A stretch of 63,965 nt of DNA, filler included, from Babesia bigemina (taxonomy: Eukaryota), in the NCBI RefSeq assembly GCF_000981445.1. It is 12 parts of 12 records of this genome, joined end to end, with 100 filler letters (N's around TTAATTAATTAA, not from the genome) between each part and the next. Parts side by side here need not be neighbours in the genome. Positions count along the whole stretch, not along the records: positions 12,757 to 28,226 come from NW_012236942.1; 11 more parts are not named here. One strand, written 5' to 3'. Both the position numbers and the translations under genes were made by a program. Positions 405-51,577 of the stretch are shown in pieces. The notes beneath the pieces are model-generated. The model searched no databases. It saw only the letters and a program-made list of their open reading frames with translations, and was not told the DNA's origin. The number at the start of each line of letters is the position of its first letter. The first letter of the stretch is position 1.

Positions 405-427
405 AATAATCACCACTTAGGTCACCA

Positions 428-1860: not shown

Positions 1861-2358
1861 CCCTCATCCCTGTATTCCCCCAGCCCAGGCCACCGACACC
1901 CACGCTGCCCGGGATACCACAGCTGCCCTGACGCGACGCATGTGACCAGCACCAACTGTCACTCTAAATAAATGACAATTCGCAACGCCATAAAAATTGC
2001 AGCGACCCGTGCGCTCAACTCCCACAGTGCAGCAGCACCGTGCTACGAGCCGCGGTATCGGCGCCATACTGGCGGAGTGTGTCGGCTACGTGCCTAAATG
2101 TGATATTAACAATCGCTACCTTGCCGCCTATAAATGCTACTTAACCGAGCCAACGCCGATTACGCCACCCTGCCAACGACTCGCAACACACGACTTAGGT
2201 CACCCGCCGCGGCCCTCACGACCGCCTACGTCAGCGACCAATCACCTAGCCTCACGTGGCACTGACTCTATGGGTAACGCGGACGCCTCTCACAGTCAAC
2301 GCACAACTCAACGCACCAGGCAATCAACGTGCTACAACACCCACCAAATTACGGTTCA
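1861..2358 (-). promoter_or_regulatory. Conserved ~500-bp GC-rich non-coding element between repeats C and D (candidate promoter/5' region of small gene)
   Basis: Near-identical copies at 41550-42045, 45265-45770, 63353-63865 and partial at 32966-33076. Regulatory role is inferred from position only. Confidence 0.5.
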
Positions 2359-2359
2359 T

Positions 2360-2815
2360 GTGCCAGCTTAGCACTTTGCCTGATTGCTAGCTTAGCACTT
2401 TGCCTGGGTGCTAGGTTAGCACTTAGCCTGGTTGCTAGCTAAACACTTTGCCTGGGTGCTATGTTACCACGTTGCCTGGTTGCTAGCTTAGCACTTTGCC
2501 TGGGTGCTAGCTTAGCACTTTGCCTGGGTGCTAGGTTACCACTTTGCCTGGTTGCTAGCTTAGCACTTTGCCTGACTGCTAGGTTACCACGTTGCCTGGG
2601 TGCTAGCTTAGCACGTTGCCTGGGTGCTAGGTCAACACTTTGCCTGGTTGCTAGCTTACCACTTAGCCTGGGTGCTAGCTTAGCACTTTGCCTGGATGCC
2701 AGCTTACCACTTTCCCCGGTTGCCAGCTTATCACTTAGCTTGCGTGCTACCTTATCACTTTGCCTGAGTGCTAGATGAACACGTAGTTTGGTTGCTAGGT
2801 TAGCACTTTGCTTGG
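2360..2815. repeat. 24-bp tandem array (repeat C) downstream of LAKISYLQP-type gene
   Basis: Unit (sense) CCCAGGCAAAGTGCTAAGCTAGCA, period 24. Confidence 0.95.
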
Positions 2816-12756: not shown

Positions 12757-14126
12757 TCTACATCGCCCCTTTGTCCACTCTACATCGCTCCTTAATCCAC
12801 CCTACATCGCTCCCTAATCCACTCTACATCGCTCCTTAACCCACTCTACATCGCCCCTTTATCCACTCCACATCGCCCCTAAACCACTTTAAATTGGCCC
12901 CTTAACCACTCTAAATCGGCCCCTTATCCACTCTAAATTGGCCCTTAAACCACTCTAAATCGGCCCTTAAACCAATCTACATCGCTCCTTTATCCACTCT
13001 ACATCGCCCCTTTATCCACTCTACATCGCTCCTTATCCACCCTACATCGCCCCTTAACCCACTCTACATCGCTCCCTAACCCACTCTACATCGCTGCCTT
13101 ATCCACTCCACATCGCTCCCTAACCCACTCTACATCGCCCCTTTATCCACTCTACATCGCTCCCTAACCCACTCTACATCGCTCCCTTATCCACTCTACA
13201 TCGCCCCTTACTCCACTTTACATCGCCCCTTAACCCACTCTACATCGCCCCTTAACCCACTCTACATCGCCCCTTAACCCACTCTACATCGCCCCTTAAC
13301 CCACTCTACATCGCTCCCTAACCCACTCCACATCGCTCCCTAACCCACTCCACATCGCCCCTTTATCCACCCTACATCGCCCCTTAACCCACTCTGCATC
13401 GCTCCCTAACCCACTCTACATCGCCCCTTAATCCACTCTACATCGCCCCTTAATCCACTCTACATCGCTCCTTACTCCACCCTACATCGCCCCTTTATCC
13501 ACTCCACATCGCCCCTTAACCCTCTCTTCATCGCTCCCTTATCCACTCTACATCGCCCCTTTATCCACTCTACATCGCTCCCTAACCCACTCTACATCGC
13601 CCCTTAACCCACTCCACATCGCTCCTTAACCCCCTCTACATCGCTCCTTTACCCACTCTACATCGCCCCTTTATCCACTCCACATCGCTCCTTTACCCAC
13701 TCCACATCGCTCCTTTACCCACTCTACATCGCCCCTTTACCCACTCTACATCGCTCCTTTGTCCACTCTACATCGCCCCTTTACCCACTCTACATCGCTC
13801 CTTTATCCACTCTACATCGCTCCTTTATCCACTCTACATCGCCCCTTAACCCACTCTACATCGCCCCTTCATCCACTCTACATCGCTCCCTAACCCACTC
13901 TACATCGCCCCTTTACCCACTCTACATCGCTCCCTTATCCACTCTACATCGCTCCCTAACCCACTCCACATCGCTCCTTTAACCACTCTACATCGCTCCT
14001 TTATCCACTCTACATCGCCCCTTTACCCACCCTTCATCGCCCCTTTACCCACCCTTCATCGCCCCTTAACCCACTCTACATCGCCCCTTTACCCACTCTA
14101 CATCGCCCCTTTATCCACTCTACATC
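12757..14126. repeat. Repeat A array, C-rich strand on +
   Basis: CCACTCTACATCGC(C/T)CC units leading into the gene leader. Confidence 0.97.
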
Positions 14127-14188
14127 CTTCGAATTACCTCGTCTTAATACCGCTATGACCTCTTTAAACCATAGCAATAACTTGTGCC

Positions 14189-17100
14189 TTGTCATCCTTC
14201 CCTACCCTTCTGGCTGAGTCCATCGACTGGTTGATCCAGGTTAGGCATGGGAATGGTGAGGGTGACAATGGTCTTGGTGAGTTGGCCAAAGCTTTGAAAA
14301 AGTTGATTGATGAGGCTATAACTAACGCTACTAACTCCCTCCAAGCCGAAAAATCTAAACTGGAATGCCCTGTTAAGTATAAGGGAAATGAGTCCACTTG
14401 CCAGTATTATGATAGGCTGATTAAGGAAGCCAAGGACGCTAAAAATTCTGTTCATCCTAAAACTCAAATTCCAATAACTGAACTTGAAAAACAAAAACAA
14501 CGCTGCCAAAATAACCACACTTATTACCGTGACGGTTCCAAGCAGAAAGCCTATGATGAAATTACTGAGCGTCAGAAACAACTTGATGATCTTAAAGATA
14601 AGCTTGAAACATTTACTAAAAGTCTCGAAACTAAAGATAATAATCTTTTAACGCATTTATGTGACGGCCTTCAGACTTTTCTTGGCTTCAACTCTGACTC
14701 CAAAGGCTACGACGGCACTGGGATTGTGTACTCTGACTTGGACAGGCTGTGTGACGGGGTGATGGGATTTCTGAGTGGTGTTCTCAGTAACATCCACAAG
14801 CATTTAGGGCAGCATAAAGGAGAAATAAACAATGCAATTACGTCACTTGAGACCAATAAACACGCCGGTAAAAAAGGTTTTAGTGTTGCGATTGTGAAGG
14901 TGGTCGAAGGGGTGGGGGGGTATAATGATAAGGTGAGGGAGAGTAATGAGAGAATTAGGAAAACGATAGAAACGTTAACTGATGCTATCGTAAAAATGGA
15001 AAAAGTTCTTTCCGGGATCATCAATCATGATCACGTTAGTAAGATTGAGTCCACTGTTAGTGATGTAATCAAAGATGCCAAGGAGTATGCTGTAGGCATC
15101 TTGCAAATAAATCGAGATATAGAAGATCTCCAACCTGATCTAAAAGGGAAAATAAACAACGCAGCGGATAACATAAATTATCAGCGCTGGATTCTCAGTC
15201 AAGCGTATGAGACGCAAAAGAGTCAGTGGACAACAATCACAGGTTTGGTCAGTCAACAACTTAATGCTGCTGTAGAACGGATTAATGAAGAAACATCAGG
15301 AAAAATTAGTGTTGTTAAAAGTCGATTAATTTTAAAAATGGACGATCTTAGAAACAAAATTTGGGATGTCAATAATACACTTAAAGGCCATATTTCCCAG
15401 CTGAGTTCCTGGATAGAAAAGGCTCAAATCGCAGTTGATGAAGCATTGCGAAAAGTCACGCAAATTGTAAACGAAGCTAGTGGTAACTCCAGCACAGCTC
15501 ATAAGTGCAAACTCGTTGAAGCTGCTGTAAAGTTACAAGATAAGGCTTTGACACTACACGGAGCTTACGAGGCTGCGAAATCGGCGTTGCCGAAATTGGC
15601 AAATAAGATTAGTAATGCTGTTAAAGGGTTAGACGATGCAATTATGAAGGATCTAGAAGGATTGGAAAAGAGTATTAACATGGAGTTGGCTGCCTATGTC
15701 AAGGAGCAGATTGAAACTGTATTGAAGGCCATTCAGGCATCTGATGCTTCCAAAGGAGGTGGTCTTATTAATGCCGGCAGTGGTGTTGAAGCTTTGAAAA
15801 ACGTGAGCGCATTGAAAGAGGCCCTTGACTCAACGCAAGAAGAATTGAGCAAAAACATAGAATTCGCGTTAGACGTGCTCAAAGATACCGCTGGCTCAAA
15901 AACCTGGAAAGCTGACGAATCTAATCCCGTTCTGAAGAACCTCACAGCTGATCTTGAGAGTGCAGTTGGATCCGCGATGACTGCGTATGTCAAAGGTAGC
16001 GATGAGTTACGAAATAAAATGGTAGATTACCAAAAACATATAACGTCTGCGCTTACTCCGGCAATAGGCGAAATCACACAAAAAGCCCTGGAACCTATTA
16101 CGAGCGCAATATCTAGTAAGAGTGCTACTGACAGTGATATCACTAAAACTGCAACTGAATTAACAGGAACTCATCTCAAACAACTCTGCGTTAGTATTAT
16201 CAATGCCGCATCTATAGACTCAGGTAGTGTCAGAGGAAAATTGGAAAAGCTGACTGAATATATTGCAAAAGATAAGCATAATATGGATGACACTCTACAG
16301 AAACTCCAAAATGATTTTAACACATTGCAATCCGGTAAGCTGAATTCGCTTATTGAAGAAGCTCAGCAAATCATTCAATATGCATCTGAACAAAGCAATG
16401 CGATTATAAAACGCCTTAACGCTCACGTCGCATTCCAAATTAATAACGCTCGAGATACTATCACAAACACTATCACAACGAATTATGTCCTATCGCTGAA
16501 ATCACTGGTTCAAGAGGTAGCAACAAAAATAAACGTTGAACTTCATCACCTCCCTGAGATGATAATTGCGGATGCGACCAAAAAATACAAAGGTTTCATG
16601 AAGCTGCTACATAGAAAAATTAACGAAAATCAATTAGATGTTGCCATTCCCGACGACTCAAACCTATATCATTTGTCCTTCAATGCTCAACAGTTTTTCG
16701 CTGCTCTACTGTACTCGGTGAACAATGATAGAAGCATTTTACCCTCTCCGAGAAACATTTTGGAGTTGAAAAGCAAAGTTCATAACCTTGTCACCTCCCT
16801 CTCCACCTTCAACCGCCACTTCCGTTCCAACCTCTCCTCCCTTTCCTCCCTCCTCGGTTCCATCCGCCCCGCATCCTACGCCGACGACAGCAACCCCCTG
16901 CTCGAGTGTCTCAAAAAGGGCGTGCAGAGGATGTGCGATGAGCTCGACAAGGCGTACGTGAGCGTGTATGATAGTGAGACTTTCGGTGCTGAGCTCGTCG
17001 AAAAGAATAAAGTAACGCCGTATGGCACTCAGTTGTCCAAGGTGTTCCTGTCCATCTTGGAGATATACAACGAAGATTTGAGGTACTTGAAAAATCGTAC

Positions 17101-19069
17101 CATCCACAAGTGGTCAACAAGTAGAATATATGCTGGTAGCAGTTTAGGCACATTTTTGCAAAATAGCGGCTACGGCGTGTCCAACAATGAGACCGAGCAG
17201 AATGGTCACTTGGACAAGAATGCCAACGGTACAAAGATCATGAGTCTACTTGTAGGCGAAAATTACGGTCACGTTTACCACAAGAATAAGAATTACAAAT
17301 TCCAGCTTGAGAACCTATACGACTGCCTTACGACTTATTACCGCATTCGTCACATCTCCACTGCAGGGTCGAAGAAGTCGCCGTGTAATATCTACGAAAT
17401 GCTCTGCTGGCTTACGAGTCTGCAATACAGTTCAGTATATCTCAACTTTATATCCGATGAGTTTAGTGACTTGTTCGATAAGCGGGAAAATAAAATCGCC
17501 GGAACCAATGAGGTCGACGGTATCTCATTCGAGGACCAAACTGCTAACAAGTTGGCAGCATACCCACAGAATATCACGTATACAGAAGTACATAATGCTA
17601 TCGTACATGTAACTTCGCTGGCACCCGTTCTTCTCACCAGCATCGTCGGGTATGGAAACGAGTATACTACGTACGCCGTTGACTTCTATTGTAATACGCA
17701 TAATTTCGCATACCCTTCATCGAGCGTTGACTGCCTGAACACGTTAATTGAACATCTCCGTAGAATTGTACCAGTTTTCCAATTCTTGCTTACCCGATGT
17801 GGCTTTGCCGCTAAGTACCACGGTTGGTCGGACTGTACGTATGGCAGAGATGTGAAATCATCAACGTGGCCATGTAATGAGCACTCAAAGACTGAAGTTG
17901 AGTGCCAATCGACATCGCCTCTTCAATCCTTCCTACGTGACTGCCTACCCGGTCACTTGCCTCATGAGCTCACTTCCACTGGCTGCAAATCGGAATGTAA
18001 GACGTGTCCCAAAAGCCTACCCGGTGCGCCATGTATAACACCACTTGGGTTCAGAGGCTTCACTGGAAGCAAGAAGACAGGCAAAGAGCTATGTAAAGTG
18101 CTGACCAAATTCCTCGGTAACGGGGTCGCTTCGTGCCTCTTTGGCCTTATTCCTAAACCGCCCTCAACATTGTCGCAACACTTTGCTTTTACGATGTCAC
18201 TTGTCAGGAATTGGCAATCAAACGGCACGCATTCTCTTAAAACAAATATTGAAGCCGCCGTCACGGAGCAATCTATTCGTCTTTTTGAACAACCCAGCGA
18301 TCTCACAGCTGCGCTACGTAACGCGTACGGTGACGTACGGAGCAGCCATAAGCGTGAAAGCCATCCAGAGGCAAAAAATGCAGACCTCTGTACGCTGTCT
18401 ACGTCAACGTCATGTACATATGCTAGTAGCGATAAGCTGCACTGCGGTCCATATCTTTCAACTCTGTGCTTGGAAGAATATCGTTACTTCGCCGATAAAC
18501 ATTGTAACTTATACCTCTCATGGGCAGTGTACCTCCCATGGACATTCTACGGTTATCTTAAAGCCCTGCTACAAGCCTTTTGCAGCATATCTTGCCAAGA
18601 CTGGGGATGTTCGAAATGCATCCATGGAGTCAAATGTAAGAAAGGACAGCACGGTGTCGACAACTGCCAGTGCCGTGGACTTGTTGAATGCCGTGGCGTA
18701 CAAAGCACTTTCTACAATTACGGATTCACGTTTGGCAATCCTGAAACACTTCTAGCAAAAGAAGGTAAAAAATATTGCCATCATTTCCATCAACAGCTGA
18801 AGTCGGTGCTTGAATCGCAGTATTTCGCAAAACTATTTGAGGAGTGCGATAATTTCCTCTGGATCATCAGGCAGCCGTTCATATGGATGAACGTCGCACT
18901 CTGGTCGCTGTCCCTCTTCTACCTCATCTGCGTGATGGTTGGCAGACTGGACGTGCTCCACATACGCTCACACCTGAGGATACCGTCGTCGCACAGCATA
19001 ACGGCGCAATCATTGTTGGCTGCAGCGCAAGTCGGAAGGCTTGCCAAGATATCGTATCTACAACCGTAA
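14189..19069 (+). CDS. ves1/VESA-like antigen ORF, class I tail; no in-frame ATG until 14762 (5'-defective or silent cassette)
   Basis: Open frame from TTG; ESIDWLIQV resembles the ves N-terminal EAIDW motif; leader ATG at 14155 is out of frame; ends LAKISYLQP. Confidence 0.8.
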   Translation: MSSFPTLLAESIDWLIQVRHGNGEGDNGLGELAKALKKLIDEAITNATNSLQAEKSKLECPVKYKGNESTCQYYDRLIKEAKDAKNSVHPKTQIPITELEKQKQRCQNNHTYYRDGSKQKAYDEITERQKQLDDLKDKLETFTKSLETKDNNLLTHLCDGLQTFLGFNSDSKGYDGTGIVYSDLDRLCDGVMGFLSGVLSNIHKHLGQHKGEINNAITSLETNKHAGKKGFSVAIVKVVEGVGGYNDKVRESNERIRKTIETLTDAIVKMEKVLSGIINHDHVSKIESTVSDVIKDAKEYAVGILQINRDIEDLQPDLKGKINNAADNINYQRWILSQAYETQKSQWTTITGLVSQQLNAAVERINEETSGKISVVKSRLILKMDDLRNKIWDVNNTLKGHISQLSSWIEKAQIAVDEALRKVTQIVNEASGNSSTAHKCKLVEAAVKLQDKALTLHGAYEAAKSALPKLANKISNAVKGLDDAIMKDLEGLEKSINMELAAYVKEQIETVLKAIQASDASKGGGLINAGSGVEALKNVSALKEALDSTQEELSKNIEFALDVLKDTAGSKTWKADESNPVLKNLTADLESAVGSAMTAYVKGSDELRNKMVDYQKHITSALTPAIGEITQKALEPITSAISSKSATDSDITKTATELTGTHLKQLCVSIINAASIDSGSVRGKLEKLTEYIAKDKHNMDDTLQKLQNDFNTLQSGKLNSLIEEAQQIIQYASEQSNAIIKRLNAHVAFQINNARDTITNTITTNYVLSLKSLVQEVATKINVELHHLPEMIIADATKKYKGFMKLLHRKINENQLDVAIPDDSNLYHLSFNAQQFFAALLYSVNNDRSILPSPRNILELKSKVHNLVTSLSTFNRHFRSNLSSLSSLLGSIRPASYADDSNPLLECLKKGVQRMCDELDKAYVSVYDSETFGAELVEKNKVTPYGTQLSKVFLSILEIYNEDLRYLKNRTIHKWSTSRIYAGSSLGTFLQNSGYGVSNNETEQNGHLDKNANGTKIMSLLVGENYGHVYHKNKNYKFQLENLYDCLTTYYRIRHISTAGSKKSPCNIYEMLCWLTSLQYSSVYLNFISDEFSDLFDKRENKIAGTNEVDGISFEDQTANKLAAYPQNITYTEVHNAIVHVTSLAPVLLTSIVGYGNEYTTYAVDFYCNTHNFAYPSSSVDCLNTLIEHLRRIVPVFQFLLTRCGFAAKYHGWSDCTYGRDVKSSTWPCNEHSKTEVECQSTSPLQSFLRDCLPGHLPHELTSTGCKSECKTCPKSLPGAPCITPLGFRGFTGSKKTGKELCKVLTKFLGNGVASCLFGLIPKPPSTLSQHFAFTMSLVRNWQSNGTHSLKTNIEAAVTEQSIRLFEQPSDLTAALRNAYGDVRSSHKRESHPEAKNADLCTLSTSTSCTYASSDKLHCGPYLSTLCLEEYRYFADKHCNLYLSWAVYLPWTFYGYLKALLQAFCSISCQDWGCSKCIHGVKCKKGQHGVDNCQCRGLVECRGVQSTFYNYGFTFGNPETLLAKEGKKYCHHFHQQLKSVLESQYFAKLFEECDNFLWIIRQPFIWMNVALWSLSLFYLICVMVGRLDVLHIRSHLRIPSSHSITAQSLLAAAQVGRLAKISYLQP

Positions 19070-19214
19070 TTGTATTCACGTTTGTAATTCACATAAACTC
19101 ACGTAATAACTCACCTACTCACCTAACCGACAAACGTAGTCTAATGTCTCGAATTACTCTAGCAGTAACCTGTGAACTAAATAGCGTTGAGATTAAGTGA
19201 TGAGTGATAGACGA

Positions 19215-19510
19215 AGCAACGTGTTGACCTAGCAACCAGGTGAAGTGCTAACCTAGCACCCAGGCAACGTGTTGAGCTAGCACCCAGGCAACGTGCTAAG
19301 CTGGCACCCAGGCAAAGTGCTAAGCTAGCACCCAGGCAACGTGCTAAGCTGGCACCCAGGCAAAGTGCTAAGCTAGCAACCAGGCAAAGTGTTAACCTAG
19401 CACCCAGGCAACGTGTCAACCTAGCAACCAGGCAAAGTGCTAAGCTAGCACACAGGCTACGTGCTAAGCTAGCACCCAGGCAAAGTGCTAACCTAGCAAA
19501 CAGGCTAAGT
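19215..19510. repeat. Repeat C array
   Basis: 24-bp units. Confidence 0.94.
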
Positions 19511-19522
19511 TGATGCTTACTG

Positions 19523-19700
19523 TAGCGATGACATGGTCACGGCAGCGATGACATGGTCACGGCAGCGATGACATGGTCACGGCAGCGATGACATGGTCAC
19601 GGCAGCGATGACATGGTCACGGCAGCGATGACATGGTTAAGGCAGCGATGACATGGACACGGCAGCGATGACATGGTCACGGCAGCGATGACATGGTGAC
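19523..19700. repeat. Repeat B array
   Basis: GGCAGCGATGACATGGTCAC units. Confidence 0.95.
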
Positions 19701-19716
19701 CTAAGTGGTGATTATT

Positions 19717-20016
19717 ATCCACTCTACATCGCCCCTTAACCCACTCTACATCGCCCCTTAACCCACTCTACATCGCTCCTTTACCCACTCTACATCGCTC
19801 CTTAACCCACTCTACACCGCCCCTTTATCCACTCTACATCGCCCCTTTACCCACCCTTCATCGCCCCTTTACCCACTCTACATCGCCCCTTTACCCACTC
19901 TGCATCGCTCCTTAACCCACTCTACATCGCCCCTTATCCACTCTACATCGCCCCTTATCCACTCTACATCGCTCCCTTATCCACTCCACATCGCTCCCTT
20001 ATCCACTCTACATCGC
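19717..20016. repeat. Short repeat A array
   Basis: About 14 units of 22 bp between junction motif and leader. Confidence 0.95.
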
Positions 20017-20076
20017 TTGAATTACCTCGCCATAATACCGCTATGACCTCTCTAAACCATCGTAATCACTTGTGCC

Positions 20077-23000
20077 TTGACACCCTTCCCTACCCTTCTG
20101 ACTGAGTCCATCGACTGGTTGATCCAGGTTAGGTATGGGAATGGTGAGAATGGTAAGGGTCTTGGTGAGTTGTCTCAAGCTTTGAAAAAGTTGATTGAGG
20201 AGGCTATTGAGAAGGCTGAGAAGTCCCTTAATGCCGAAAAATCTAAGCTTTCTTGCCCCTTCAAATACTCTGATAAAGAGACTTACTGTCAGTACTACGA
20301 GAAGCAGATTAAGCACTGTGATGAAGAACTTAATAAACTTCAATCTCAACAACCTAAAAAACCTAATAATGATTACGATAAAAACATTCTAACAACCACC
20401 AAAAAACGTTGCGATGATGCTAAAAAAGCCTGTATTAATGCTCACAAAAAACATCCTCCATCTGCTGCCATAAAGGACATTGAGTCCAAGTTGGAGCAGG
20501 TTAAAAAGCTTGGAGAGAGTCTTAAAGGATTGACTGAAAATGACAATTGTAAAAATCTCCTTGTTAATTTATGTGACGGCCTTCAGACTTTCCTCGGCTT
20601 CAACTCTGAGACCAAAGGCTACGACGGCAGTGGGATTGTGTACTCCGACCTTGACAGGCTGTGCGACGGGGTGATGGCGTTTTTGCTTAGCTGCCTGGAG
20701 GGAAGTATAGACCTATTAAAACATTACAATCCTGATATAGTAAATACAATTCACGCTTTAAAATCTTCAATAGGCAAGGGGCTTGGCGTTTCGGGATTTG
20801 CGCAGGCCATTGGGAAGGTTAAGAGCGGACTGCAGGGGTATGAGGAGGGGATGACGGCAAGAACTGAGGGAGTTAAATCTGAATTAAGTTCACTTAGCAG
20901 CACTATTAACAGACAAAAAACTGAATTTAATAATATGCATAATAGTAAATTAGTTCAGCAGTTGTCCGTTGTGTCCACTAAGGCCTCTGAGTACTGGAAT
21001 AAGGTCATCGGTGTTGAGCTGGCGAATTCAGACTTAGATGAGAGCCTCGGACATAAGTTATTGCCAGCGATTAATTTGGTGAAACAGGCGGTAAAAACCC
21101 TGAAAGATGTTTCCGAAGATAAAGCCGTTACGTCACAAGCTGGGATTGTCGACACTACGTTGGAAGCGAAGAAAAGAGAGATAGTTGCACTTGTTGGAAG
21201 TCATTCAGATAATGTGCAGAAAGCATTGAAAGCTGAGTTCATAAAGGTAGGTGACAATATAAGCCGCTTGTGTCACGTGAGAGATGAGAATTTCGCGTTA
21301 ATGAAAGCGGCTATTGAGTTCACCCAACAAGAAGTAAGGGTCTCCATAGAGAGCTTCACCGATGAATACAGAAAAGAGATCACGAAGTCCTTCGACAATT
21401 TAAGAATTCAAATGATGTCCATTGATCCATTGAAGGATTCGGGTTCAACGCTTAAATGTCTTCTTGAACAGGATGTTCTGACTATTAAATCCAAAGTGCT
21501 CGAGATAGGTAATCAGCTCAGTAGACACGTATCGAATTTAGAAGCTAGAATTGGCAAAGCTGATAGTTTCGTTGATACTGCGTTGGAGAGGGTGAACGAG
21601 ATTCTTAGGGAGGTTGAAGAGGATACTGGACCAAATGCTAAACCGATTAAAGATGCATCCAAGGACATCACAGACCATGCTGAAACGTTACATGGGAGGT
21701 TTGAAGCAATGAAAGGCAAATATGAGACTATTTATAAAATCATCCATGGTGACAATACTGGTACAGAAAGCGTGTTGATGAAACTCAAGACGCTCAAAAA
21801 GCAGATTAGTGTGCCTCATTCGATGGACGCATTCACTGGAGGTGGTGACTGGGGTGTGAACCACGAAATCAAAGAGCTAACAAGCAGAATAAGTAACAAT
21901 GTTAAGGGGTATGTTAGCACATTGGTTGAAGCCCTTGAGGTGGGCGTGAATGAGGCAGCGACGAGTGATCCTCTTGGTGATGGACTTGGTATAAAAGGCA
22001 TTGAAGCTCTGAGTAGACACGTTGCCGAACATTTGGATGAGCTGGGAATGTTTGGCAGACGGCTAAATGAGGCTCTCCCAGCGGTGGTTGCCAAAGGCCC
22101 AAGTAGTGAACTTGCTACCGATCTGGAAACATTCCTCTATGTGTTCAAAGACGCGAAAGCGAATTGGAGTACAACGAAACCGCCACTCTCTGATATGTTT
22201 AGAGATCTCCAAGAAGAGTTTAGCACTAAGGCGATTGCCGGCGTCAATGACAATCAAGTAAAAGATCTTATAGTGGCTGCGGTCAACAAAGGTATCGAAA
22301 GGCTTCAATCGGCGTTGGAAATTCCAGTCATCAAAGAGATGGAGAAGGTTCATAAGATTTCGGACATGCATAAATATTTCGCAAATTCAGCTGTGCAAAA
22401 CTTGAAAGAAAAGGCTACTGTAGTTTCCTCCTCCCTCAATGCTATGTGCGCAGCTGTTAAGAAAATGGCAGGACAGGAGGCTAAGGGTTTGCAAAACGTT
22501 TTAAACACGCTGAAAAACGAGGCGATTAGTAAGCAGAGAAAACATTCCGAAAGCCTTGGCGAACTGCAACAACAACTTAGCAGATTTCAGAAGGAACAAT
22601 TGTCCGATCAAGAAAGCGGTCAAATTCAGAATGCTATTGCTAACGTCGTAAAAACAATTAATGAAGATCTTGAAAAGTTACCAGGCGCTGTGGACAATGC
22701 GCAAAAAGAGGCAGAGAAGTTAATGACTCAATTGCAAGACGATATAAATGTCATTCGAAATGAGATAAATACGATAAATGATAAGGTGAACGCTGCGGAA
22801 AAGGTTCTAACTTCATCGATCGATGCTCTGAGCAGGGCTTATATACATGCCGAAAACACATCGATGAGAGCCGTGCTATCACTTCGAAAGACCCTCATCC
22901 AAATGGTTAACTCCGCCTTCTCCGCCCTCACCCACCAAGTCCAATCCCTCTTCGCGAAGCAGAAGCAGGCCGACCTGTCCGCGCTGGAGGGCGTTGTCAC

Positions 23001-25764
23001 GGCGCAGTTGCAGGAGATTGAGAGGGTTATTCAGGCGGATAGGGGGAGCGGGGTGAAGGGGTATTTGGGGAAGATGAAGGAGAGTATCACAGACATCTTA
23101 GACAATCCCGCTCCTGCTCCTTTAGTACATAGCGATACATCTATTCTGTCTGTTAAATTGAAGTCTAACTTCGAACCTCTTCTTGAGTACGTAATAGAGC
23201 AAATATCTTCCGCCTCCCCCTCTGCAGTTTCAAAAGTTTATACGGTTGAAGGCCTGAAAAGTAAGCTCACCACTCTCTTGGAGAAACTTGCCGAGTCCAA
23301 GCATTTCGACGATAGATTCTCCAGCAATTTGCACTCCCTTAATGATGCTCTGGATACATTCAAACCGCCGAAATACGATAATGGAAAGAACCCATTGCTG
23401 CTAGACATCCTGAGAGATAGTATGAGGGCTCTGTCCGAGCAGCTTGGTTATGCCTACATCAACACGTACGACGGGCATCCGAAAATGGACCTTACGAAAC
23501 TGGTGTTAACTAAAACAGCCCCTCCGCCTAAAGTGAATGAATCAAGTAAAGCGGGCGAACAAGTGTTAACTCCGGCTGGTGAAAAGCTGTCTAAGGTGTG
23601 CCTTACTGCACTTGATATCTTGTTTCATGATCTGGAAGAATTAAGACAAGCGTTGCGAGCTGACGATGATTGGAAAACAAAGAAAGTATGTCTGATCGAA
23701 TTGTCGAACGGTAAGAAACATATGAGCGCACTTGGACTCTGGCTCAGTAACAATGGCTTCGTGGTGTCGGATAATTCCAACAAGCAAAACGGCGAGTTGG
23801 ACAAGAGATGTGATGGTAAGAAACTCATGCAAGTATTGACCGGAAGTAAGACACACGTATTCGCTGGAGAGAACAATACAACTGGTGCACTTGAAACGCT
23901 GCATTACTATCTCATTACATATTACAAAGCGAACCACTTCCGCCATATTCCGTCGCCCAAAGCCCCGTGCAGCATTTACCAGATGTTAGAGTGGCTGTGC
24001 GGATTATACTACAATCCGATGTTCGGGAAGCTTGTAGACGGCTTTGAGGCACTGTTTGATCGGAAGACGCACAAGTTAGATGTCGCATTGCCAGAGGAAA
24101 TGAATGACGTCGTTCAATCGCCTCTCAAAGCGAATCACCTAACCACTACGCTCCGTTCTGTCTGCTTCCAATCCGAAACGGTATTAGTCGGCATCCTTGG
24201 GCACGGTCACGCTGACGGTGTATACTCCACTGACTTTCATATAAACACGGATGACTTGCTGTATCCGACGGACTTTAACACTTTAGTCTGCCTCTTATTC
24301 GACATCTTGAAATGCCTACAGCAACAACTGTACTTCCTATATGAACAGTGTTGTCATCCAACAGACGTCAGCGGTTGGTCGGAGTGCTGGTATGGCCAGG
24401 GTATTGCCGGCTCAGGCTGGCAGTGCAATGACCTTCAGTGTCATAACCAAAAATGCAACCAAACAGCTGACCAAAAGCGTGACCAAATACATAACCAAAG
24501 CGGTGATCAACATCCTGAATGCGGCTTAAAATCGCCTCTTCAGTCTTTCCTCGAAGACGGTTTGCAAGGCTTCTTACCGCATAATGTGTCAGCCAGGGGG
24601 CCTAAAATGTCATGCTCAAGTTGTTCTAGAGCACCACCTGGTACTCCATGTAAGACACCGATGGGATTCCCAGCAATAGGCATCGCAGCATCCCATCGGA
24701 AAACTGGTCATCATTTGAGCGATGTGCTTGTTGACTTTTGTGGCGGCGCAGGGTCTCCTCTCACGAAGCTGTGCAGCCTATTTAACTGTATTCTCCCCAG
24801 CGCTCCCAAAACGCTTGGTGACATGTTCTCATTTTACTACTATCTCCTACACGACTGGGACGACGCCAATGGAAATGGTAACAAGCATAAGAAAATCGCA
24901 TTTGATGAACAAGTTAGCAAAGCCTACTTCAACGACGAATACAATCTCGGCGACATATCTCTGCTGTTTAAATACACGAAGCACGCAGCTTTTGTTCATG
25001 TACCAACCAACGAAGTGGAGAGTTTATATCATTACAGCGGCAACCTCTGTAGTATATACAACCCTGCCGATGAGTGTTACGTCACCGGCAGAACATGTGG
25101 CGCCTATATGACACCGTTGTCTTTGGAGGTATATTCCACATTGACCTCTAAAAATGCGGGTGGCTACCTGTCGTGGATTCTCTACCTTACCGAAACGTTC
25201 TACAACTTACTATGCCAGCTCTACAAAAGATGCGAAGATAGTTGCGCCGGTAGGAGTAGGAAATGCCGTGTCGCCGGTTGTGTCCAAGGCGGTTGCAAAG
25301 TTGCCGCGGTTGATACTCTGGACACTAAAAAGCATGGTGAGTCGTGCAACTCAATCGTTCAATGCCAAAATACATTACCGACATTATTCACGTACGGCTT
25401 CACATATGGCGACAGGATATCACTAAACGGAAATGTTGATGACAAATGCGTTCCTAAGAGGAGATGCAAGGATTTCATCGAACAACTCGGCAGAGTATGC
25501 TCCGACAAATCGGTACTTGCTAAGCTAATACATGAGACCATTCCCAATTTCATGTGGGCCATCAGAAGCAAATTCTTCTGGACCACCGTCGCCCTCTGGC
25601 TCCTCTCTTTATTGTACCTCATCCACATCATGGTCATCCGCCTAGACCTGCTCCACATCAAATCGCATCTACATAGTCCATCATCACATCGCATAGCTGC
25701 GCAATCGCTGTTAGCTGCTGCACGCGTTAACAAGCTTAACAGGGTGTTTTATCTGCAACCATAA
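20077..25764 (+). CDS. ves1/VESA-like antigen ORF, class II tail; no in-frame ATG until 20674
   Basis: ESIDWLIQV, GYDGSGIVYSDLDRLCD, CGLKSPLQSFLEDGL, TM, ends LNRVFYLQP; leader ATG at 20043 is out of frame. Confidence 0.8.
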   Translation: MTPFPTLLTESIDWLIQVRYGNGENGKGLGELSQALKKLIEEAIEKAEKSLNAEKSKLSCPFKYSDKETYCQYYEKQIKHCDEELNKLQSQQPKKPNNDYDKNILTTTKKRCDDAKKACINAHKKHPPSAAIKDIESKLEQVKKLGESLKGLTENDNCKNLLVNLCDGLQTFLGFNSETKGYDGSGIVYSDLDRLCDGVMAFLLSCLEGSIDLLKHYNPDIVNTIHALKSSIGKGLGVSGFAQAIGKVKSGLQGYEEGMTARTEGVKSELSSLSSTINRQKTEFNNMHNSKLVQQLSVVSTKASEYWNKVIGVELANSDLDESLGHKLLPAINLVKQAVKTLKDVSEDKAVTSQAGIVDTTLEAKKREIVALVGSHSDNVQKALKAEFIKVGDNISRLCHVRDENFALMKAAIEFTQQEVRVSIESFTDEYRKEITKSFDNLRIQMMSIDPLKDSGSTLKCLLEQDVLTIKSKVLEIGNQLSRHVSNLEARIGKADSFVDTALERVNEILREVEEDTGPNAKPIKDASKDITDHAETLHGRFEAMKGKYETIYKIIHGDNTGTESVLMKLKTLKKQISVPHSMDAFTGGGDWGVNHEIKELTSRISNNVKGYVSTLVEALEVGVNEAATSDPLGDGLGIKGIEALSRHVAEHLDELGMFGRRLNEALPAVVAKGPSSELATDLETFLYVFKDAKANWSTTKPPLSDMFRDLQEEFSTKAIAGVNDNQVKDLIVAAVNKGIERLQSALEIPVIKEMEKVHKISDMHKYFANSAVQNLKEKATVVSSSLNAMCAAVKKMAGQEAKGLQNVLNTLKNEAISKQRKHSESLGELQQQLSRFQKEQLSDQESGQIQNAIANVVKTINEDLEKLPGAVDNAQKEAEKLMTQLQDDINVIRNEINTINDKVNAAEKVLTSSIDALSRAYIHAENTSMRAVLSLRKTLIQMVNSAFSALTHQVQSLFAKQKQADLSALEGVVTAQLQEIERVIQADRGSGVKGYLGKMKESITDILDNPAPAPLVHSDTSILSVKLKSNFEPLLEYVIEQISSASPSAVSKVYTVEGLKSKLTTLLEKLAESKHFDDRFSSNLHSLNDALDTFKPPKYDNGKNPLLLDILRDSMRALSEQLGYAYINTYDGHPKMDLTKLVLTKTAPPPKVNESSKAGEQVLTPAGEKLSKVCLTALDILFHDLEELRQALRADDDWKTKKVCLIELSNGKKHMSALGLWLSNNGFVVSDNSNKQNGELDKRCDGKKLMQVLTGSKTHVFAGENNTTGALETLHYYLITYYKANHFRHIPSPKAPCSIYQMLEWLCGLYYNPMFGKLVDGFEALFDRKTHKLDVALPEEMNDVVQSPLKANHLTTTLRSVCFQSETVLVGILGHGHADGVYSTDFHINTDDLLYPTDFNTLVCLLFDILKCLQQQLYFLYEQCCHPTDVSGWSECWYGQGIAGSGWQCNDLQCHNQKCNQTADQKRDQIHNQSGDQHPECGLKSPLQSFLEDGLQGFLPHNVSARGPKMSCSSCSRAPPGTPCKTPMGFPAIGIAASHRKTGHHLSDVLVDFCGGAGSPLTKLCSLFNCILPSAPKTLGDMFSFYYYLLHDWDDANGNGNKHKKIAFDEQVSKAYFNDEYNLGDISLLFKYTKHAAFVHVPTNEVESLYHYSGNLCSIYNPADECYVTGRTCGAYMTPLSLEVYSTLTSKNAGGYLSWILYLTETFYNLLCQLYKRCEDSCAGRSRKCRVAGCVQGGCKVAAVDTLDTKKHGESCNSIVQCQNTLPTLFTYGFTYGDRISLNGNVDDKCVPKRRCKDFIEQLGRVCSDKSVLAKLIHETIPNFMWAIRSKFFWTTVALWLLSLLYLIHIMVIRLDLLHIKSHLHSPSSHRIAAQSLLAAARVNKLNRVFYLQP

Positions 25765-25889
25765 TCGTACTCACGTGTTTACTATCCACACTCACCTAGC
25801 ATCACCTACTCACCTAACAAATGAATTGTGCTTTAATCTGTTGTATCACTCATTAATCGTTGTATGTGATTGTGTAGTAGTTAACTAAA

Positions 25890-26055
25890 GTGCTGACCAA
25901 TGCCATGACCAAAGTGCTGACCAAGGTGCTGACCAAAGTGGTGACCTATGTGCTGACCAAAGCCATGACCAAAGTGCTGACCAATGCCATGCCCAACCTG
26001 GTGACCAATGTGCTGACCAAGGTGCTGACCTATGTGCTGACCAAGCACCTGACCA
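25890..26055. repeat. 12-bp tandem array (repeat E) downstream of class II gene
   Basis: Unit GTGCTGACCAA(A/G/T) with GCCATGACCAA variants. Confidence 0.92.
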
Positions 26056-26059
26056 AGTT

Positions 26060-27380
26060 GATGTTCACGGCAGCGATGAAATGGTCACGGCAGCGATGAC
26101 ATGGTCACGGCAGCGATGACATGGTCACGGCAGCGATGACATGGTCACGGCAGCGATGACATGGTCACGGCAGCGATGACATGGTTACAGCAGCGATGAC
26201 ATGGTTACCAAGTTAGTGGTCACGGCAGCGGTGACATGGTTAGGCAGCGATGTCATGGTTACGGCAGCGATGACATGGTCACGGCAGCGATGAGATGGTC
26301 ACGGCAGCGATGACATGGTTATGGTTACGGCAGCGATGACATGGTTATGGTTACGGCAGCGATGACATGGTTATGGTCACGGCAGCGATGAGATGGTCAC
26401 GGCAGCGATGATGAGGTCACGGCAGCGATTACATGGTCACGGCAGCGATGACATGGTCACGGCAGCGATGACATGGTCACGGCAGCGATGACATGGTTAC
26501 GGCAGCGATGACATGGTCACGGCAGCGATGAGATGGTCACGGCAGCGATGATGAGGTCACGGCAGCGATTACATGGTCACGGCAGCGATGACATGGTCAC
26601 GGCAGCGATGACATGGTTACGGCAGCGATGACATGGTCACGGCAGCGATGAGATGGTCACGGCAGCGATGACATGGTCACGGCAGCGATGATGAGGTCAC
26701 GGCAGCGATTACATGGTCACGGCAGCGATGACATGGTTATGGCAGCGATGACATGGTCACGGCAGCGATGAGATGGTCACGGCAGCGATGACATGGTCAC
26801 GGCAGCGATGACATGGTCACGGCAGCGATGACATGGTTATGGTTACGGCAGCGATGACATGGTTATGGTCACGGCAGCGATGACATGGTAACGGCAGCGA
26901 TGACATGGTCACGGCAGCGATGACATGGTTACGGCAGCGGTGACATGGTTAGGCAGCGGTGACATGGTCACGGCAGCGATGACAAGGTCACGGCAGCGAT
27001 GTCATGGTTACGGCAGCGATGACAAGGTCACGGCAGCGATGACATGGTTACAGCAGCGATGACATGGTTACAGCAGCGATGACATGGTTACCAAGTTAGT
27101 GGTCACGGCAGCGATGACATGGTCACGGCAGCGATGACATGGTCACGGCAGCGATGACATGGTTACAGCAGCGATGACATGGTTACCAAGTTAGTGGTCA
27201 CGGCAGCGGTGACATGGTCACGGCAGCGATGACTTGGTCACGGCAGCGATGACATGGTCACGGCAGCGATGACATGGTTACGGCAGCGATGACATGGTCA
27301 CGGCAGCGATGAGATGGTCACGGCAGCGATGACATGGTTATGGTCACGGCAGCGATGAGATGGTCACGGCAGCGATGACA
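26060..27380. repeat. 1.3-kb repeat B array
   Basis: 20-bp units with occasional insertions. Confidence 0.97.
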
Positions 27381-27404
27381 GTGGTGACCAAAGTGGTGAT
27401 TATT

Positions 27405-27877
27405 ACCCACTCTACATCGCCCCTTTAACCACTCTACATCGCCCCTTTAACCACTCCACATCGCTCCTTTATCCACTCTACATCGCTCCCTAACCCACTC
27501 TACATCGCCCCTTTATCCACTCTACATCGCCCCTTTACCCACTCTACATCGCTCCCTAACCCACTCTACATCGCCCCTTAACTTCCTCTAATCGCTCCCT
27601 AACCCACTCTACATCGCCCCTTTACCCACTCCACATCGCTCCCTAATCCACTCTTCATCGCTCCCTAACTCACTCCACATCGCTCCCTAACTCACTCCAC
27701 ATCGCTCCTTAACCCACTCCACATCGCTCCTTACCCACTCTACATCGCTCCCTAACCCACTCCACATCGCTCCCTAACCCACTCTACGTCGCCCCTTTAC
27801 CCACTCTACATCGCTCCCTAACCCACTCTACATCGCCCCTTTATCCACTCCACATCGCTCCTTATCCACTCCACATC
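27405..27877. repeat. Repeat A array
   Basis: 22-bp units. Confidence 0.96.
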
Positions 27878-28067
27878 CGCCGAATCACCTCGCCATATTA
27901 CCGCTATGACCTCTATTAACCATCCTAATAACTTGTGCCTTGTCACCCTTCACTTCCCTTCTTCCACCTCTTGCCACTGCCATGTCCCATCATGTTCACC
28001 TTAACTCCAAATCTCTCGAATTACTTCGCCTTATTAATGCTATGACCTCTGTAAACCTTAATAATAA

Positions 28068-28226
28068 CTTGTTGATGCCGACCATTCTCTTACTGATGAT
28101 GCTACTAAGAAAGCCTTGAAGGACATTGAGTCCAAGCTCATTAGCCTTGGTCACCTTGCTGGTCAACTTGGAGGATTTGTTGGTGAGAGTGAGAGTGTTA
28201 AGAAAGCCGTTAAGAAGGCTATATCG
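28068..28226 (+). pseudogene. 5' fragment of a ves-like gene, no in-frame ATG, cut by contig end
   Basis: My translation LVDADHSLTDDATKKALKDIESKLISLGHLAGQLGGFVGESESVKKAV matches ORFs 46951 and 36064; TAA at 28065 directly upstream. Confidence 0.75.
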
Positions 28227-31742: not shown

Positions 31743-32183
31743 TCAGCTGCGCAGTAGATACCGCACCCTGTGGAAGGGCCGGATGCGGAAGTAGACCATG
31801 GCGCAAATGACGACGACGATGAGGGCGACGGGGACGATGATGTAAGGGGCGGGGTTGGAGGGAGAGGTAGATGGTGGACCGGTGTGAGGATCTGCACGGG
31901 GGGGAGAGGCGGCACGGGAGGAAGAAGAGCCACGCTGTGGACTGGGGGAATCAGGGGAACGATATACTTTTATGCGTTTCGCGACACAACAGTTACATTG
32001 ACACCTGGTGTCACATTGTTTACATCTCACATGATCGCACTGCTCTACTCCACTCATGAGCGAAAGTCGAAACTTAGCGCATCGAAGACAATATTGCTCA
32101 CATCCTCCACAACACCACGGACAACAATAACATTTAGTTAAGGTACAGGTTGTCTTACACTTACACGGCGGAGTATAGCTCAT
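31743..32183 (-). CDS. Small Cys-rich CCPWCC protein with Ser/Pro linker, TM and basic tail, 146 aa
   Basis: ATG in GGGGAAG-ATG context; CYCCPWCC; TM IIVPVALIVVVICAMVYF; same position between repeats D and B as 963-1532. Confidence 0.8.
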   Translation of the reverse strand: MSYTPPCKCKTTCTLTKCYCCPWCCGGCEQYCLRCAKFRLSLMSGVEQCDHVRCKQCDTRCQCNCCVAKRIKVYRSPDSPSPQRGSSSSRAASPPRADPHTGPPSTSPSNPAPYIIVPVALIVVVICAMVYFRIRPFHRVRYLLRS

Positions 32184-38513: not shown

Positions 38514-38707
38514 CAACTTGGTCATGGCATTGGTCAGCACATTGGTCAGCACTTTGGTCATGGCATTGGTCAGGTGCTTGGTCACCTCACTGCTCATGTG
38601 ATTGGTCATCAGTGCAATCATTACTGTCTACAACATTAGGTGTCAGTTGTCAGTTAGGTGATCAGTGGGATTTGGATTACGATGTTGGCGCTAACAGATT
38701 GCGGAGA

Positions 38708-38887
38708 TCAGCTGTAAAACGCGATGCAGAAGGGTATCTTGCGTACGAGGAAATCGCGGATGTTGCGGCCCACCGGAAAGCGGAAGATGCACAGGTCGAG
38801 CAGGATGATGGCGACGATGATGGCAACGATGACGGCGGCGATGACCGAGTAGGGAGTGGTCACCTCACTGCTCATGTGCTTGGTCAT
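38708..38887 (-). pseudogene. Isolated TM-plus-tail segment of the 963-1532 gene type (59-aa mini-ORF)
   Basis: MTKHMSSEVTTPYSVIAAVIVAIIVAIILLDLCIFRFPVGRNIRDFLVRKIPFCIAFYS; no Cys domain. Confidence 0.65.
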
Positions 38888-38947
38888 CAACGCGATCACT
38901 ATTTTGTCTATAACATTAGATGTCAGTTGCCAGTTAGGTTAACGTGA

Positions 38948-39094
38948 TCAGCTGCGCAGTAGATACCGCACCCTGTGGAACGGCCGGATGCGGAAGTAGA
39001 CCATGACGCAGATGACGACGATGATGAGGGCGACGGGGATGATGATGTAAGGGGCGGCAGTTATGGTCACCGCACTGCTCATGTAATTTGCCAT
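38948..39094 (-). pseudogene. Isolated TM-plus-tail segment of the 31743-32183 gene type (48-aa mini-ORF)
   Basis: My translation MANYMSSAVTITAAPYIIIPVALIIVVICVMVYFRIRPFHRVRYLLRS. Confidence 0.65.
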
Positions 39095-39191
39095 CAAGCA
39101 ATCATTACTGTCTACAACATTAGATGTGAGTTGCCAGTTAGGTGATCAATGGGATTATGATTAACAAAGTTTGCGCTAACAATCGCTGAGT

Positions 39192-51576: not shown

Positions 51577-51577
51577 T

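What the first reader, a model, noticed from the sequence alone, without database searches (positions are those of the whole stretch)
12757..28226. Ordered repeat-punctuated cassette array: candidate silent archive for antigenic variation
Seen within one contig: A > leader > gene > C > B > junction > A > leader > gene > E > B > junction > A > leader > gene, head to tail. The other contigs fit the same order, apart from the retroelement-fused copy. Of eight visible 5' ends only 8365 has an uninterrupted in-frame ATG. The others are out of frame (14155, 20043, 28042, 46877), stopped (54769), repeat-fused (51576) or retroelement-fused (36085), yet kilobases of downstream frame stay open. Established: B. 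bovis varies ves genes by segmental gene conversion, and trypanosome VSG donors are bounded by upstream repeats and a conserved 3' end. Inference: start-less donor cassettes bounded by repeat A and conserved 3' ends, copied into an expression site elsewhere. I know of no description of this five-repeat grammar. Alternative: translation starts at the Met of DRLCD(G/A)VM.
Basis: partly seen in the sequence, partly recalled or inferred. Interest (0 to 1): 0.85.

Follow-up and report, generated by a model that had tools for sequence, protein, structure and literature searches.

The report
Headless surface-antigen gene archive in Babesia
In a cattle blood parasite (likely Babesia bigemina), surface-antigen genes stacked head to tail between ordered satellite repeats have lost their normal start yet keep their reading frames open, and they likely serve as a silent store that is recombined onto a few intact gene heads to change the parasite's coat.

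Summary
The order of repeats and the eight broken or odd 5' ends are real. The genes are ves1b-type antigens, and the window is 12 unplaced contigs, inferred to be Babesia bigemina BOND.

Of 110 B. bigemina relatives, 75 lack the conserved N-terminal motif. Twenty-nine chromosome-internal genes keep it, two carry it behind an odd start, and four unplaced genes share their own intact start (MRH[V/T]PKK). Three of these four carry exact tracts from headless copies in the N-terminal module; 0 of 29 canonical genes do. Near-identical partners separate at the conserved GIVYSDLDRLCD core (1 of 7 stay together, against 38 of 43 elsewhere). The bodies hold no stop in 11,451 codons.

Best reading (0.55): a silent archive whose bodies are joined to a few intact heads, mainly at the core, much like Pneumocystis msg-I.

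Against: no RNA evidence; tract direction unknown; head bodies have no identical donor; 14 copies keep an in-frame leader ATG; published peptides map to array genes.

Verdict: new variant of a known kind.

The parts
12757..14126 (+). Repeat A (22-bp degenerate satellite, 62 copies, cut by the contig start); C-rich on the gene strand
14131..14184 (+). Leader/cap (54-bp conserved block; its ATG at 14155 is out of frame)
14168..19069 (+). Headless ves1b copy, open 1633 codons; homology to intact genes begins at ESIDWL; QVG-type tail
14638..14784 (+). Conserved core (FLGFN..GIVYSDLDRLCD..M), the inferred recombination junction; present in each copy whose 5' part reaches it
19216..19510 (+). Repeat C (24 bp), follows QVG-type tails
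19524..19697 (+). Repeat B (20 bp)
19698..19714 (+). Fixed B>A junction
   Evidence: seen at 5 of 5 B>A joins
19715..20017 (+). Repeat A (14 copies)
20019..20072 (+). Leader/cap (ATG 20043 out of frame)
20056..25764 (+). Headless ves1b copy, open 1902 codons; RV-type tail
25887..26045 (+). Repeat E (12 bp), follows RV-type tails
26061..27385 (+). Repeat B (65 copies)
27403..27877 (+). Repeat A (22 copies)
27882..28226 (+). Double leader (ATGs 27906 and 28042, both out of frame) and the start of a third headless copy, cut by the contig end
8396..12656 (-). Repeat A (194 copies)
2954..8365 (-). ves1b copy with in-frame leader ATG (84-residue start class), lacking the conserved N-terminal motif; QVG tail
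2360..2815 (-). Repeat C
1863..2359 (-). ~500-bp spacer S1, 89-93% alike in four copies (also 41552-42037, 45266-45759, 63353-63853); possible promoter of the small gene (inference)
1539..1862 (-). Repeat D (75 bp; GTGAGT...CAG intron-like part of 33-36 nt plus a 40-41 nt part); also 32196-32979, 42052-42119, 45761-46073, 63854-63965
963..1532 (-). Small gene X: ATG right after D, 189 aa, Cys-rich variable domain, S/P/T stalk, one TM helix, fixed tail
31743..32183 (-). Second gene X copy, 146 aa, same Cys pattern, other tail type
38610..39242 (-). Three tandem gene-X tail pieces (two tail types), each followed by the same 3' block
424..828 (-). Repeat B, then junction and repeat A (1-406)
33177..36085 (-). 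Headless copy fused to a LINE 3' end; residues 32-164 identical to intact head P0007, most of the rest identical to headless P0006
36086..36652 (-). 3' end of a LINE-like element (161-codon frame to 36167, then untranslated end)
39343..41087 (+). 3' part of a copy (QVG tail) > C > S1 > D
42374..44022 (+). 3' part of a copy (QVG tail) > C > S1 > D
46717..50078 (+). Double leader (ATGs 46741, 46877) and headless copy 46903-50078, after repeat A 46174-46716
50179..51577 (-). Headless copy fused directly to repeat A (51578-54214); 528 bp 97% alike to the 46903 copy, ending at the core
54628..59727 (+). Leader (ATG 54652), stop at 54769, open frame 54772-59727, RV tail, then repeat E 59851-60252
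60353..62879 (+). 3' part of a copy (QVG tail) > C > S1 > D

Best explanation
These contigs are head-to-tail arrays of ves1b antigen genes that lack the family's conserved start but keep open bodies, and they likely act as a silent archive whose bodies and N-terminal modules are recombined, mainly at the conserved core, onto a few intact MRH[V/T]PKK heads that would be the expressed sites. SHOWN: anatomy; loss of the motif; open frames; four intact heads in the same exchange pool; partner change at the core. INFERRED: that the arrays lie at chromosome ends with 5' ends pointing outward; that headless copies are silent; that heads are transcribed; that whole bodies move by crossover at the core, leaving no donor behind, while N-terminal modules are patched by short conversion; that the ordered satellites give the flanking homology for array-to-array exchange.
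For: (1) Census of 110 B. bigemina proteins: 29 intact canonical starts, all on chromosome scaffolds away from the end arrays; 2 with the motif behind an odd start; 4 intact MRH starts, all on unplaced 8-12 kb contigs; 75 without the motif (64 unplaced, 10 in scaffold-end arrays, 1 elsewhere on chr3). 37 of the 75 begin in the same cap as the window's copies (2 of the 37 look like chance); 0 of the 35 motif-bearing ones do. (2) N-terminal module covered by exact tracts of 20 aa or more from headless copies: 3 of 4 MRH heads (79, 52, 27, 0%), 0 of 29 canonical genes, 23 of 40 headless copies. P0007 residues 62-310 are largely a patchwork of headless copies, including 133 aa identical to the window's 36085 copy. 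The fourth head, P0155, shares 127 aa with a degenerate-start gene. (3) Pairs near-identical before the core stay so after it in 1 of 7 cases, against 38 of 43 over equal gaps further on (Fisher p 2e-4; 3 of 13 against 46 of 70 at a looser cut, p 0.006; pairs not independent). (4) 0 stops in 11,451 codons, while the caps differ by 15.5% on average; dN/dS 0.11-0.33 in the C-terminal 450 codons for the 10 of 21 pairs that are not saturated. (5) BOND is a clone with Illumina-corrected sequence (PMC4066756), so identical tracts between loci are not alleles. (6) The 17 scaffold-end array genes listed are all on the reverse strand, and the last ones end 756 and 899 bp from the inferred ends of chr2 and chr3 (coordinates; lengths). 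(7) Leader, core and 3' end are held at 95% identity or more in run X1.
Against: No expression data for any copy. Direction of every shared tract is unknown, and headless copies exchange with each other as much as with heads (median body cover 12% against 10% and 2% for the two long heads). Those two bodies have no near-identical donor among 85 headless sequences; the sample is incomplete (best 120 of 147 hits listed, length limits). 14 copies (13 annotated plus 8365) can be read from the leader ATG. In the published proteome of strain PR, 17 scaffold-end array genes received 1-12 peptides (1-7 unique, scores 22-202); I checked 7 of the 17 and all lack the motif. That fits expression in place as well as mosaics. 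No BBBOND_00 entry is in that table, so the heads were probably not in the searched set. 29 intact canonical ves1b genes exist and include the dominant detected protein, so the parasite does not depend on the archive. I could not read DNA around the four heads. The N-terminal module may simply exchange faster overall; my within-module control had 0 pairs.
Confidence: 0.55

Rival explanations
1. The copies are expressed in place as N-terminally shortened antigens, from the leader ATG (84-residue class), by splicing, or from an internal ATG; the arrays are simply a second class of active ves1b genes.
For: 13 annotated copies plus 8365 keep the same 84-residue in-frame start; peptides assigned to 17 array genes; open bodies under past purifying selection; small gene X inside the arrays has its own ATG.
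Against: The same start class is broken at 54769 and apparently in three annotated models (P0004, P0062, P0094). The cap is joined to at least four different coding positions, in different frames. Two copies have no cap at all. None of the possible GT-AG joins from the 7 leader ATGs tested has a consensus-like donor (consensus recalled, and matching the intron-like part of repeat D). The core Met lies behind 2-12 upstream ATGs and is internal in intact genes.
Confidence: 0.2
2. The arrays are by-products of unequal crossing-over at chromosome ends: bodies recently copied from working genes, cut at the 5' end, and on their way to decay, with no role as donors.
For: Headless copies do not form one clade: the label needs 21 changes on a 113-row tree of the C-terminal region and is mixed with intact and B. 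ovata genes. Very long identical tracts between array copies (702 aa, 598 aa). A LINE insertion and 5' lesions show tolerance of damage. Cap divergence is not a clock if caps are swapped.
Against: Array copies share no exact N-module tract with the 29 canonical genes (0 of 40), and most have long terminal branches (median 0.42), so they are not fresh copies of known intact genes. Lesions are confined to the 5' end in all 8 visible 5' ends (7 broken, 1 lacking the motif); none was found in 34 kb of body.
Confidence: 0.2
3. The pattern is an assembly or annotation artefact of an 8x capillary assembly broken at satellites.
For: Most of the 12 contigs begin or end in a repeat or inside a gene; contig 7 ends in sequence that looks like adaptor or vector (identification recalled).
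Against: Two whole units lie inside one contig; the same cap precedes dozens of copies; the A>leader join is in 11 contigs of a separate run; the sequence was Illumina-corrected.
Confidence: 0.03

Closest known systems
BbigVes1b family of Babesia bigemina (Jackson et al. 2014, PMC4066756)
   Same: Same protein family: long body, conserved core, C-terminal TM helix and tail. Scaffold-end array genes are labelled ves1b in the Sanger annotation as tabulated in PMC5660447.
   Different: The passages read do not mention loss of the start, the satellites, the cap, the MRH heads or gene X. The three unplaced-contig genes looked up carry no VESA label in that table.
Pneumocystis jirovecii msg-I system, UCS/CRJE (PMC10622565, passages)
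   Same: About 80 subtelomeric, promoter-less, mostly open, mosaic genes; a conserved element in each is the likely site of joining to an intact upstream part.
   Different: One UCS there; here at least 4 candidate heads plus 29 intact genes. The junction here lies inside the coding region, behind a variable N-terminal module. Ordered satellites and a second gene family lie between the genes. Nothing suggests common descent.
Babesia bovis ves1 LAT and segmental gene conversion (PMC6630957, PMC7485966, PMC2034396; passages)
   Same: Same superfamily; mosaics of short tracts (mean 109 bp there; 25-133 aa tracts in P0007); truncated ves1 genes were proposed as donors.
   Different: B. bovis ves1 genes are mostly divergent pairs and mostly interstitial; here head-to-tail arrays with a shared cap and an ordered satellite spacer.
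Trypanosoma brucei VSG archive (recalled, not read here)
   Same: Silent subtelomeric arrays, upstream repeats, conserved 3' ends, several expression sites.
   Different: Many VSG pseudogenes are broken inside (recalled); here bodies are open and only the 5' end is lost. The measured boundary is an internal core, not the upstream repeat.

Membership tests
BbigVes1b | Homology to annotated ves1b genes over body and conserved C-terminus | tested here: met
   (E 0 to 1e-110; 24-49% identity); relatives CDR97490, CDR97311 and CDR94851 labelled ves1b
BbigVes1b | Single TM helix near the C-terminus | tested here: met
   one hydropathy peak about 60 aa from the end in 4 of 4 complete window copies and in P0007 and P0024
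BbigVes1b | Conserved start M..KKLTDCPENLRE[SA]IDWL (taken from the intact members seen here, not a published definition) | tested here: not met
   absent from 8 of 8 visible 5' ends (two keep only ESIDWL) and from 75 of 110 relatives; so: ves1b bodies, not complete ves1b genes
B. bovis LAT / segmental gene conversion | Divergent ves pair with a bidirectional promoter | tested here: not met
   head-to-tail in the window. One of 4 heads (CDR71705) has accession neighbours in the ves1a cluster; same contig and orientation not verified
B. bovis LAT / segmental gene conversion | One-way copying of short tracts from untranscribed donors into the active gene | tested here: inconclusive
   exact tracts shared between heads and headless copies; direction and transcription not testable
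Pneumocystis msg-I (UCS/CRJE) | Single-copy upstream part with the promoter | tested here: not met
   4 MRH heads and 29 other intact starts
Pneumocystis msg-I (UCS/CRJE) | Conserved element in every gene at which partners change | tested here: met
   core: 1 of 7 pairs kept against 38 of 43 elsewhere; works alike, not shown to be homologous
Pneumocystis msg-I (UCS/CRJE) | Silent copies mostly with open frames, in subtelomeric tandem arrays | tested here: inconclusive
   open: met; arrays reach scaffold ends, telomeres not seen; silence not testable
T. brucei VSG archive (features recalled) | Upstream repeat forms the 5' boundary of conversion into the expression site | not testable with these tools
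   no DNA for the heads; whether they lie next to repeat A is unknown
T. brucei VSG archive (features recalled) | Conserved 3' end shared by donors and expression site | tested here: met
   two tail types with conserved 3' flanks. The QVG tail is in 30 headless relatives and in head P0007, and in 0 of 29 canonical genes
LINE-like retroelement (36086-36652) | Reverse-transcriptase domain upstream of the C-terminal region | tested here: inconclusive
   only the last 161 codons are on the contig; Atlas hit 'Reverse transcriptase (Fragment)' at 0.95; no Pfam hit above cut-off; LINE-like elements are reported in B. bigemina (PMC9141347)

The most novel reading that the evidence does not exclude
B. 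bigemina runs a second antigenic-variation system beside its intact ves1b genes: a few telomere-side heads (promoter plus intact N-terminus) are moved onto any of some 75 or more open, headless bodies by crossover at a conserved coding core, a Pneumocystis-like switch not described in Apicomplexa in the papers I found. The ordered satellites also carry a second, undescribed family of small variable Cys-rich membrane antigens.
Probability: 0.3. Interest if true: 0.88.

Novelty: new variant of a known kind. Interest (0 to 1): 0.7.

Why it matters
How B. bigemina varies its surface and persists in cattle is open; Jackson et al. noted that the B. bovis LAT model may not carry over. This gives a concrete, testable model with named candidates: four intact heads (XP_012770709, XP_012770739, XP_012770651, XP_012770902), a junction, and an archive that makes up most of the ves1b-type sequences sampled here. 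It implies that gene counts and expression calls for ves1b mix working genes with headless ones, and that peptides or reads mapped to array genes may come from mosaic sites. It also places the long-used SpeI-AvaI diagnostic PCR on this variable multicopy core.

Tried and rejected
Whole genome: none held, so relatives were studied as annotated proteins only; gene-model starts are predictions.

RNA: no RNA holder listed; this says nothing on expression.

Run X1 left the body of the 14168 copy uncovered at 95%; holes in contigs prove nothing. No contig end showed the DNA of an intact head (6 of 40 loose ends displayed).

Array copies as one clade: rejected (FastTree on 113 rows, rows without a C-terminus left out; the IQ-TREE run did not finish).

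P0007/P0123 as complete mosaics of known donors: rejected for the bodies.

Repeat D as coding exons: its 40-41 nt parts shift frame and meet stops, so it is at most untranslated.

G-quadruplex enrichment in repeat A: not found (25 against a mean of 33 in base shuffles). It holds 31 GGGTTAGGG in 194 units, a telomere-like hint only.

Coding constraint on the cap: changes fall at all codon positions; no sign of it in 8 sequences.

Pfam: no family above cut-off for the ves copies, gene X or the LINE piece. PDB by sequence: one chance-level hit. Fold of an intact N-terminal domain: all helical, mean pLDDT 65, pTM 0.42, first 12 residues under 50; not informative, no fold search run. Atlas search for gene X did not complete.

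ves1a next to heads: 1 of 4 by accession order, unverified. B. ovata: no gene model among 53 starts in the cap; DNA not seen. Earlier findings: none.

Literature searches found no description of these arrays or of gene X. Subscription papers are not covered, figures are not held (including the ves1b gene models in Fig. 3 of PMC4066756), and supplements of the bioRxiv paper could not be seen.
Full report
WHAT THE WINDOW IS. The window is 12 contigs joined by a fixed linker. The long frames are relatives of Babesia bigemina BOND and B. ovata proteins (best 120 of 147 hits listed). They share identical tracts of up to 337 aa with BOND proteins, so the source is inferred to be that assembly. Relatives in the chr3-end array are labelled ves1b in the Sanger annotation tabulated in PMC5660447; the three unplaced-contig genes looked up have no label. 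BOND is a clone, Illumina-corrected.

OBSERVATION. The full unit is longer: A > cap > ves body > tail. An RV-type tail is followed by E > B (2 of 2 for E). A QVG-type tail is followed by C (5 of 5), which leads straight to B once and to spacer S1 > repeat D four times. After D, where visible, comes small gene X, then B or E > B. B joins A through a fixed junction (5 of 5). The 54-bp cap differs by 15.5% between its 8 copies. It is joined to the coding region at different places: at ESIDWL, at SSTSCHC, at D(A/T)DHSL, and at further places in relatives. Repeat A joined to the cap is present in 11 contigs of run X1; one contig joins A directly to the end of the cap.

WHAT IS MISSING. Intact ves1b genes begin M..KKLTDCPENLRE[SA]IDWL. 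Among 110 B. bigemina proteins gathered have this start and all lie on chromosome scaffolds outside the end arrays. Two have the motif behind an odd start. Seventy-five lack it: 64 unplaced, 10 in scaffold-end arrays, 1 elsewhere. Thirty-seven of the 75 models start inside the cap (2 probably by chance); the others start at internal ATGs, and some may be cut by contig ends. The bodies in the window are open: 0 stops in 11,451 codons, where 0.5% random change leaves all ten open in 1 of 200 runs and 1% in 0 of 200.

CANDIDATE RECIPIENTS. Four genes on unplaced contigs of 8.4-12.1 kb have an intact start of their own, MRH[V/T]PKKLTDCPENLRESIDWLIQVR: P0007, P0123, P0153, P0155. Their N-terminal modules are covered by exact tracts from headless copies at 79, 52, 27 and 0%; none of 29 canonical genes has such a tract, and 23 of 40 headless copies do. 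P0007 shares 55 aa with P0152, 133 aa with the window's 36085 copy, and 32 aa each with P0120 and P0030. It is also the only intact gene with the QVG tail. So the heads belong to the arrays' exchange pool and, for this module, the canonical genes do not. Against a simple copy-in model, the bodies of P0007 and P0123 are only 10% and 2% covered; P0153 and P0155 are too short to test.

WHERE EXCHANGE HAPPENS. Pairs that are near-identical just before the core remain so just after it in 1 of 7 cases, against 38 of 43 over the same gap at eight later positions; at a looser cut, 3 of 13 against 46 of 70 (directed version). Pairs are not independent, and duplicates inflate the control. In DNA, the 46903 and 51576 copies are 97% alike for 528 bp up to the core and unalike after it. 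The 36085 copy matches P0007 before the core and P0006 after it. Array-to-array tracts further down also occur, up to 702 aa. On a tree of the C-terminal region the headless copies are mixed with intact and B. ovata genes (21 changes), so headlessness is a state of the locus and not a lineage.

POSITION. In the supplementary table of PMC4066756, 14 chr3 array genes span 147 kb on the reverse strand, at gaps of 1.2-5.8 kb where listed neighbours are close (two larger gaps of 20 and 23 kb). With scaffold lengths, the last listed genes end 899 bp (chr3) and 756 bp (chr2) from the right ends. A merged table entry led by array gene 0200070 has forward-strand coordinates 37 kb from the left end of chr2. 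So 5' ends point to scaffold ends, and an intact head would lie in the unassembled outer part. This is inference; telomeres were not seen.

MECHANISM. Most likely (0.55) the arrays are a silent archive. A head supplies promoter and conserved start. Crossover at the core would put a new body behind it without leaving a donor copy, which explains unique head bodies. Short conversions would patch the N-terminal module. Open bodies would be kept because each can be called up whole. The satellites likely serve exchange between arrays; their role is untested. Expression in place (0.2) rests on 14 copies readable from the cap ATG and on peptides assigned to 17 array genes in strain PR (low scores, another strain, heads probably not in the searched set). 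It is weakened by broken members of the same start class, the absence of consensus-like splice donors, and 2-12 upstream ATGs before the core Met. Neutral duplication (0.2) must explain why damage is confined to the 5' end.

SECOND FAMILY. Gene X begins at an ATG right after repeat D (189 and 146 aa). It has 16 Cys invariant in 8 aligned members, a S/P/T stalk, one TM helix and one of two fixed tails. Twenty clusters at 50% identity match at E up to 1e-10 (the library has no names; several carry D-derived sequence). It has no Pfam family. Jackson et al. found no Cys/Lys-rich domain in B. bigemina VESA; whether X is related to that domain was not tested.

COMPARISON AND NOVELTY. The family is known. 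Segmental conversion is shown for B. bovis, and truncated ves1 donors were proposed there. The closest working analogue is Pneumocystis msg-I, but the single-upstream-site test fails, so this works like it and is not a member. Seven searches found no account of the arrays, cap, heads or gene X. Verdict: new variant of a known kind; interest 0.70.

PAPERS, AS SEEN. PMC4066756: outline, passages, sections 4 (part 1), 21, 22 (part 1), 23, supplementary legends, searched rows of the proteome table. PMC5660447: passages and searched rows of one supplementary table. PMC10463595: passages and section 14. PMC6630957, PMC7485966, PMC2034396, PMC9141347, PMC7909277, PMC10622565 and 10.1101/2024.01.17.575932: passages only. 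VSG features and the splice-donor consensus are recalled.

Noticed in passing
window 963-1532 (-), 31743-32183 (-), 38610-39242 (-): Multigene family X not found in the papers searched: small, variable Cys-rich membrane proteins with two alternative fixed tails and tandem spare tails; 20 clusters at 50% identity, no Pfam family. May be a variant antigen family of its own.
   Followed up: partly
window 14680-14756, 20592-20668 and the other cores: The published B. bigemina SpeI-AvaI diagnostic primers BiIB and BiIBN (PMC7909277) match the ves1b core in 7 window copies with 2-6 mismatches; BiIAN matches downstream in two copies with 4-5; BiIA has no match within 6. The 'restriction fragment' target is likely a ves1b segment.
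   Followed up: partly
window 36086-36652 (-): 3' end of a LINE-like element joined to a ves1b copy at nearly the same coding position as the double-leader copies (before DATRRAL / DDATKKAL).
   Followed up: partly
window 1539-1862, 32196-32979, 45761-46073: Repeat D looks like a tandem of 33-36 nt introns (GTGAGT...CAG) with 40-41 nt spacers, lying in front of gene X's ATG; possibly a 5' untranslated region with many introns.
   Followed up: partly
window 8396-12653 and other A arrays: Repeat A is G-rich on the strand pointing away from the gene and holds telomere-like GGGTTAGGG in 31 of 194 units; in size and place it recalls Plasmodium Rep20 (recalled).
   Followed up: partly
window ~19150-19165 and ~28012-28026: The 12-mer TCTCGAATTACT occurs in the 3' flank of most QVG-type genes and at the start of the second cap.
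   Followed up: no
window 46981-47508 against 50785-51312: The recently shared tract differs by 13.5 non-synonymous and 1.5 synonymous changes over 167 codons, a hint of patching or diversifying selection.
   Followed up: no
window ~42120-42273: The end of contig 7 leaves repeat D for sequence that looks like adaptor or vector with an inverted repeat (identification recalled).
   Followed up: no
proteins P0012 (BBBOND_0312140) and P0126 (BBBOND_0310230): Two chr3 genes with array-like N-terminal modules and a worn motif; P0126 shares 127 identical residues with head P0155. They may be displaced or retired heads.
   Followed up: partly
B. ovata proteins P0156-P0168: B. ovata has many short (200-340 aa) gene models holding mainly the N-terminal module; those printed begin MVRQ[P/S]KK, close to the MRHVPKK head start.
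   Followed up: no
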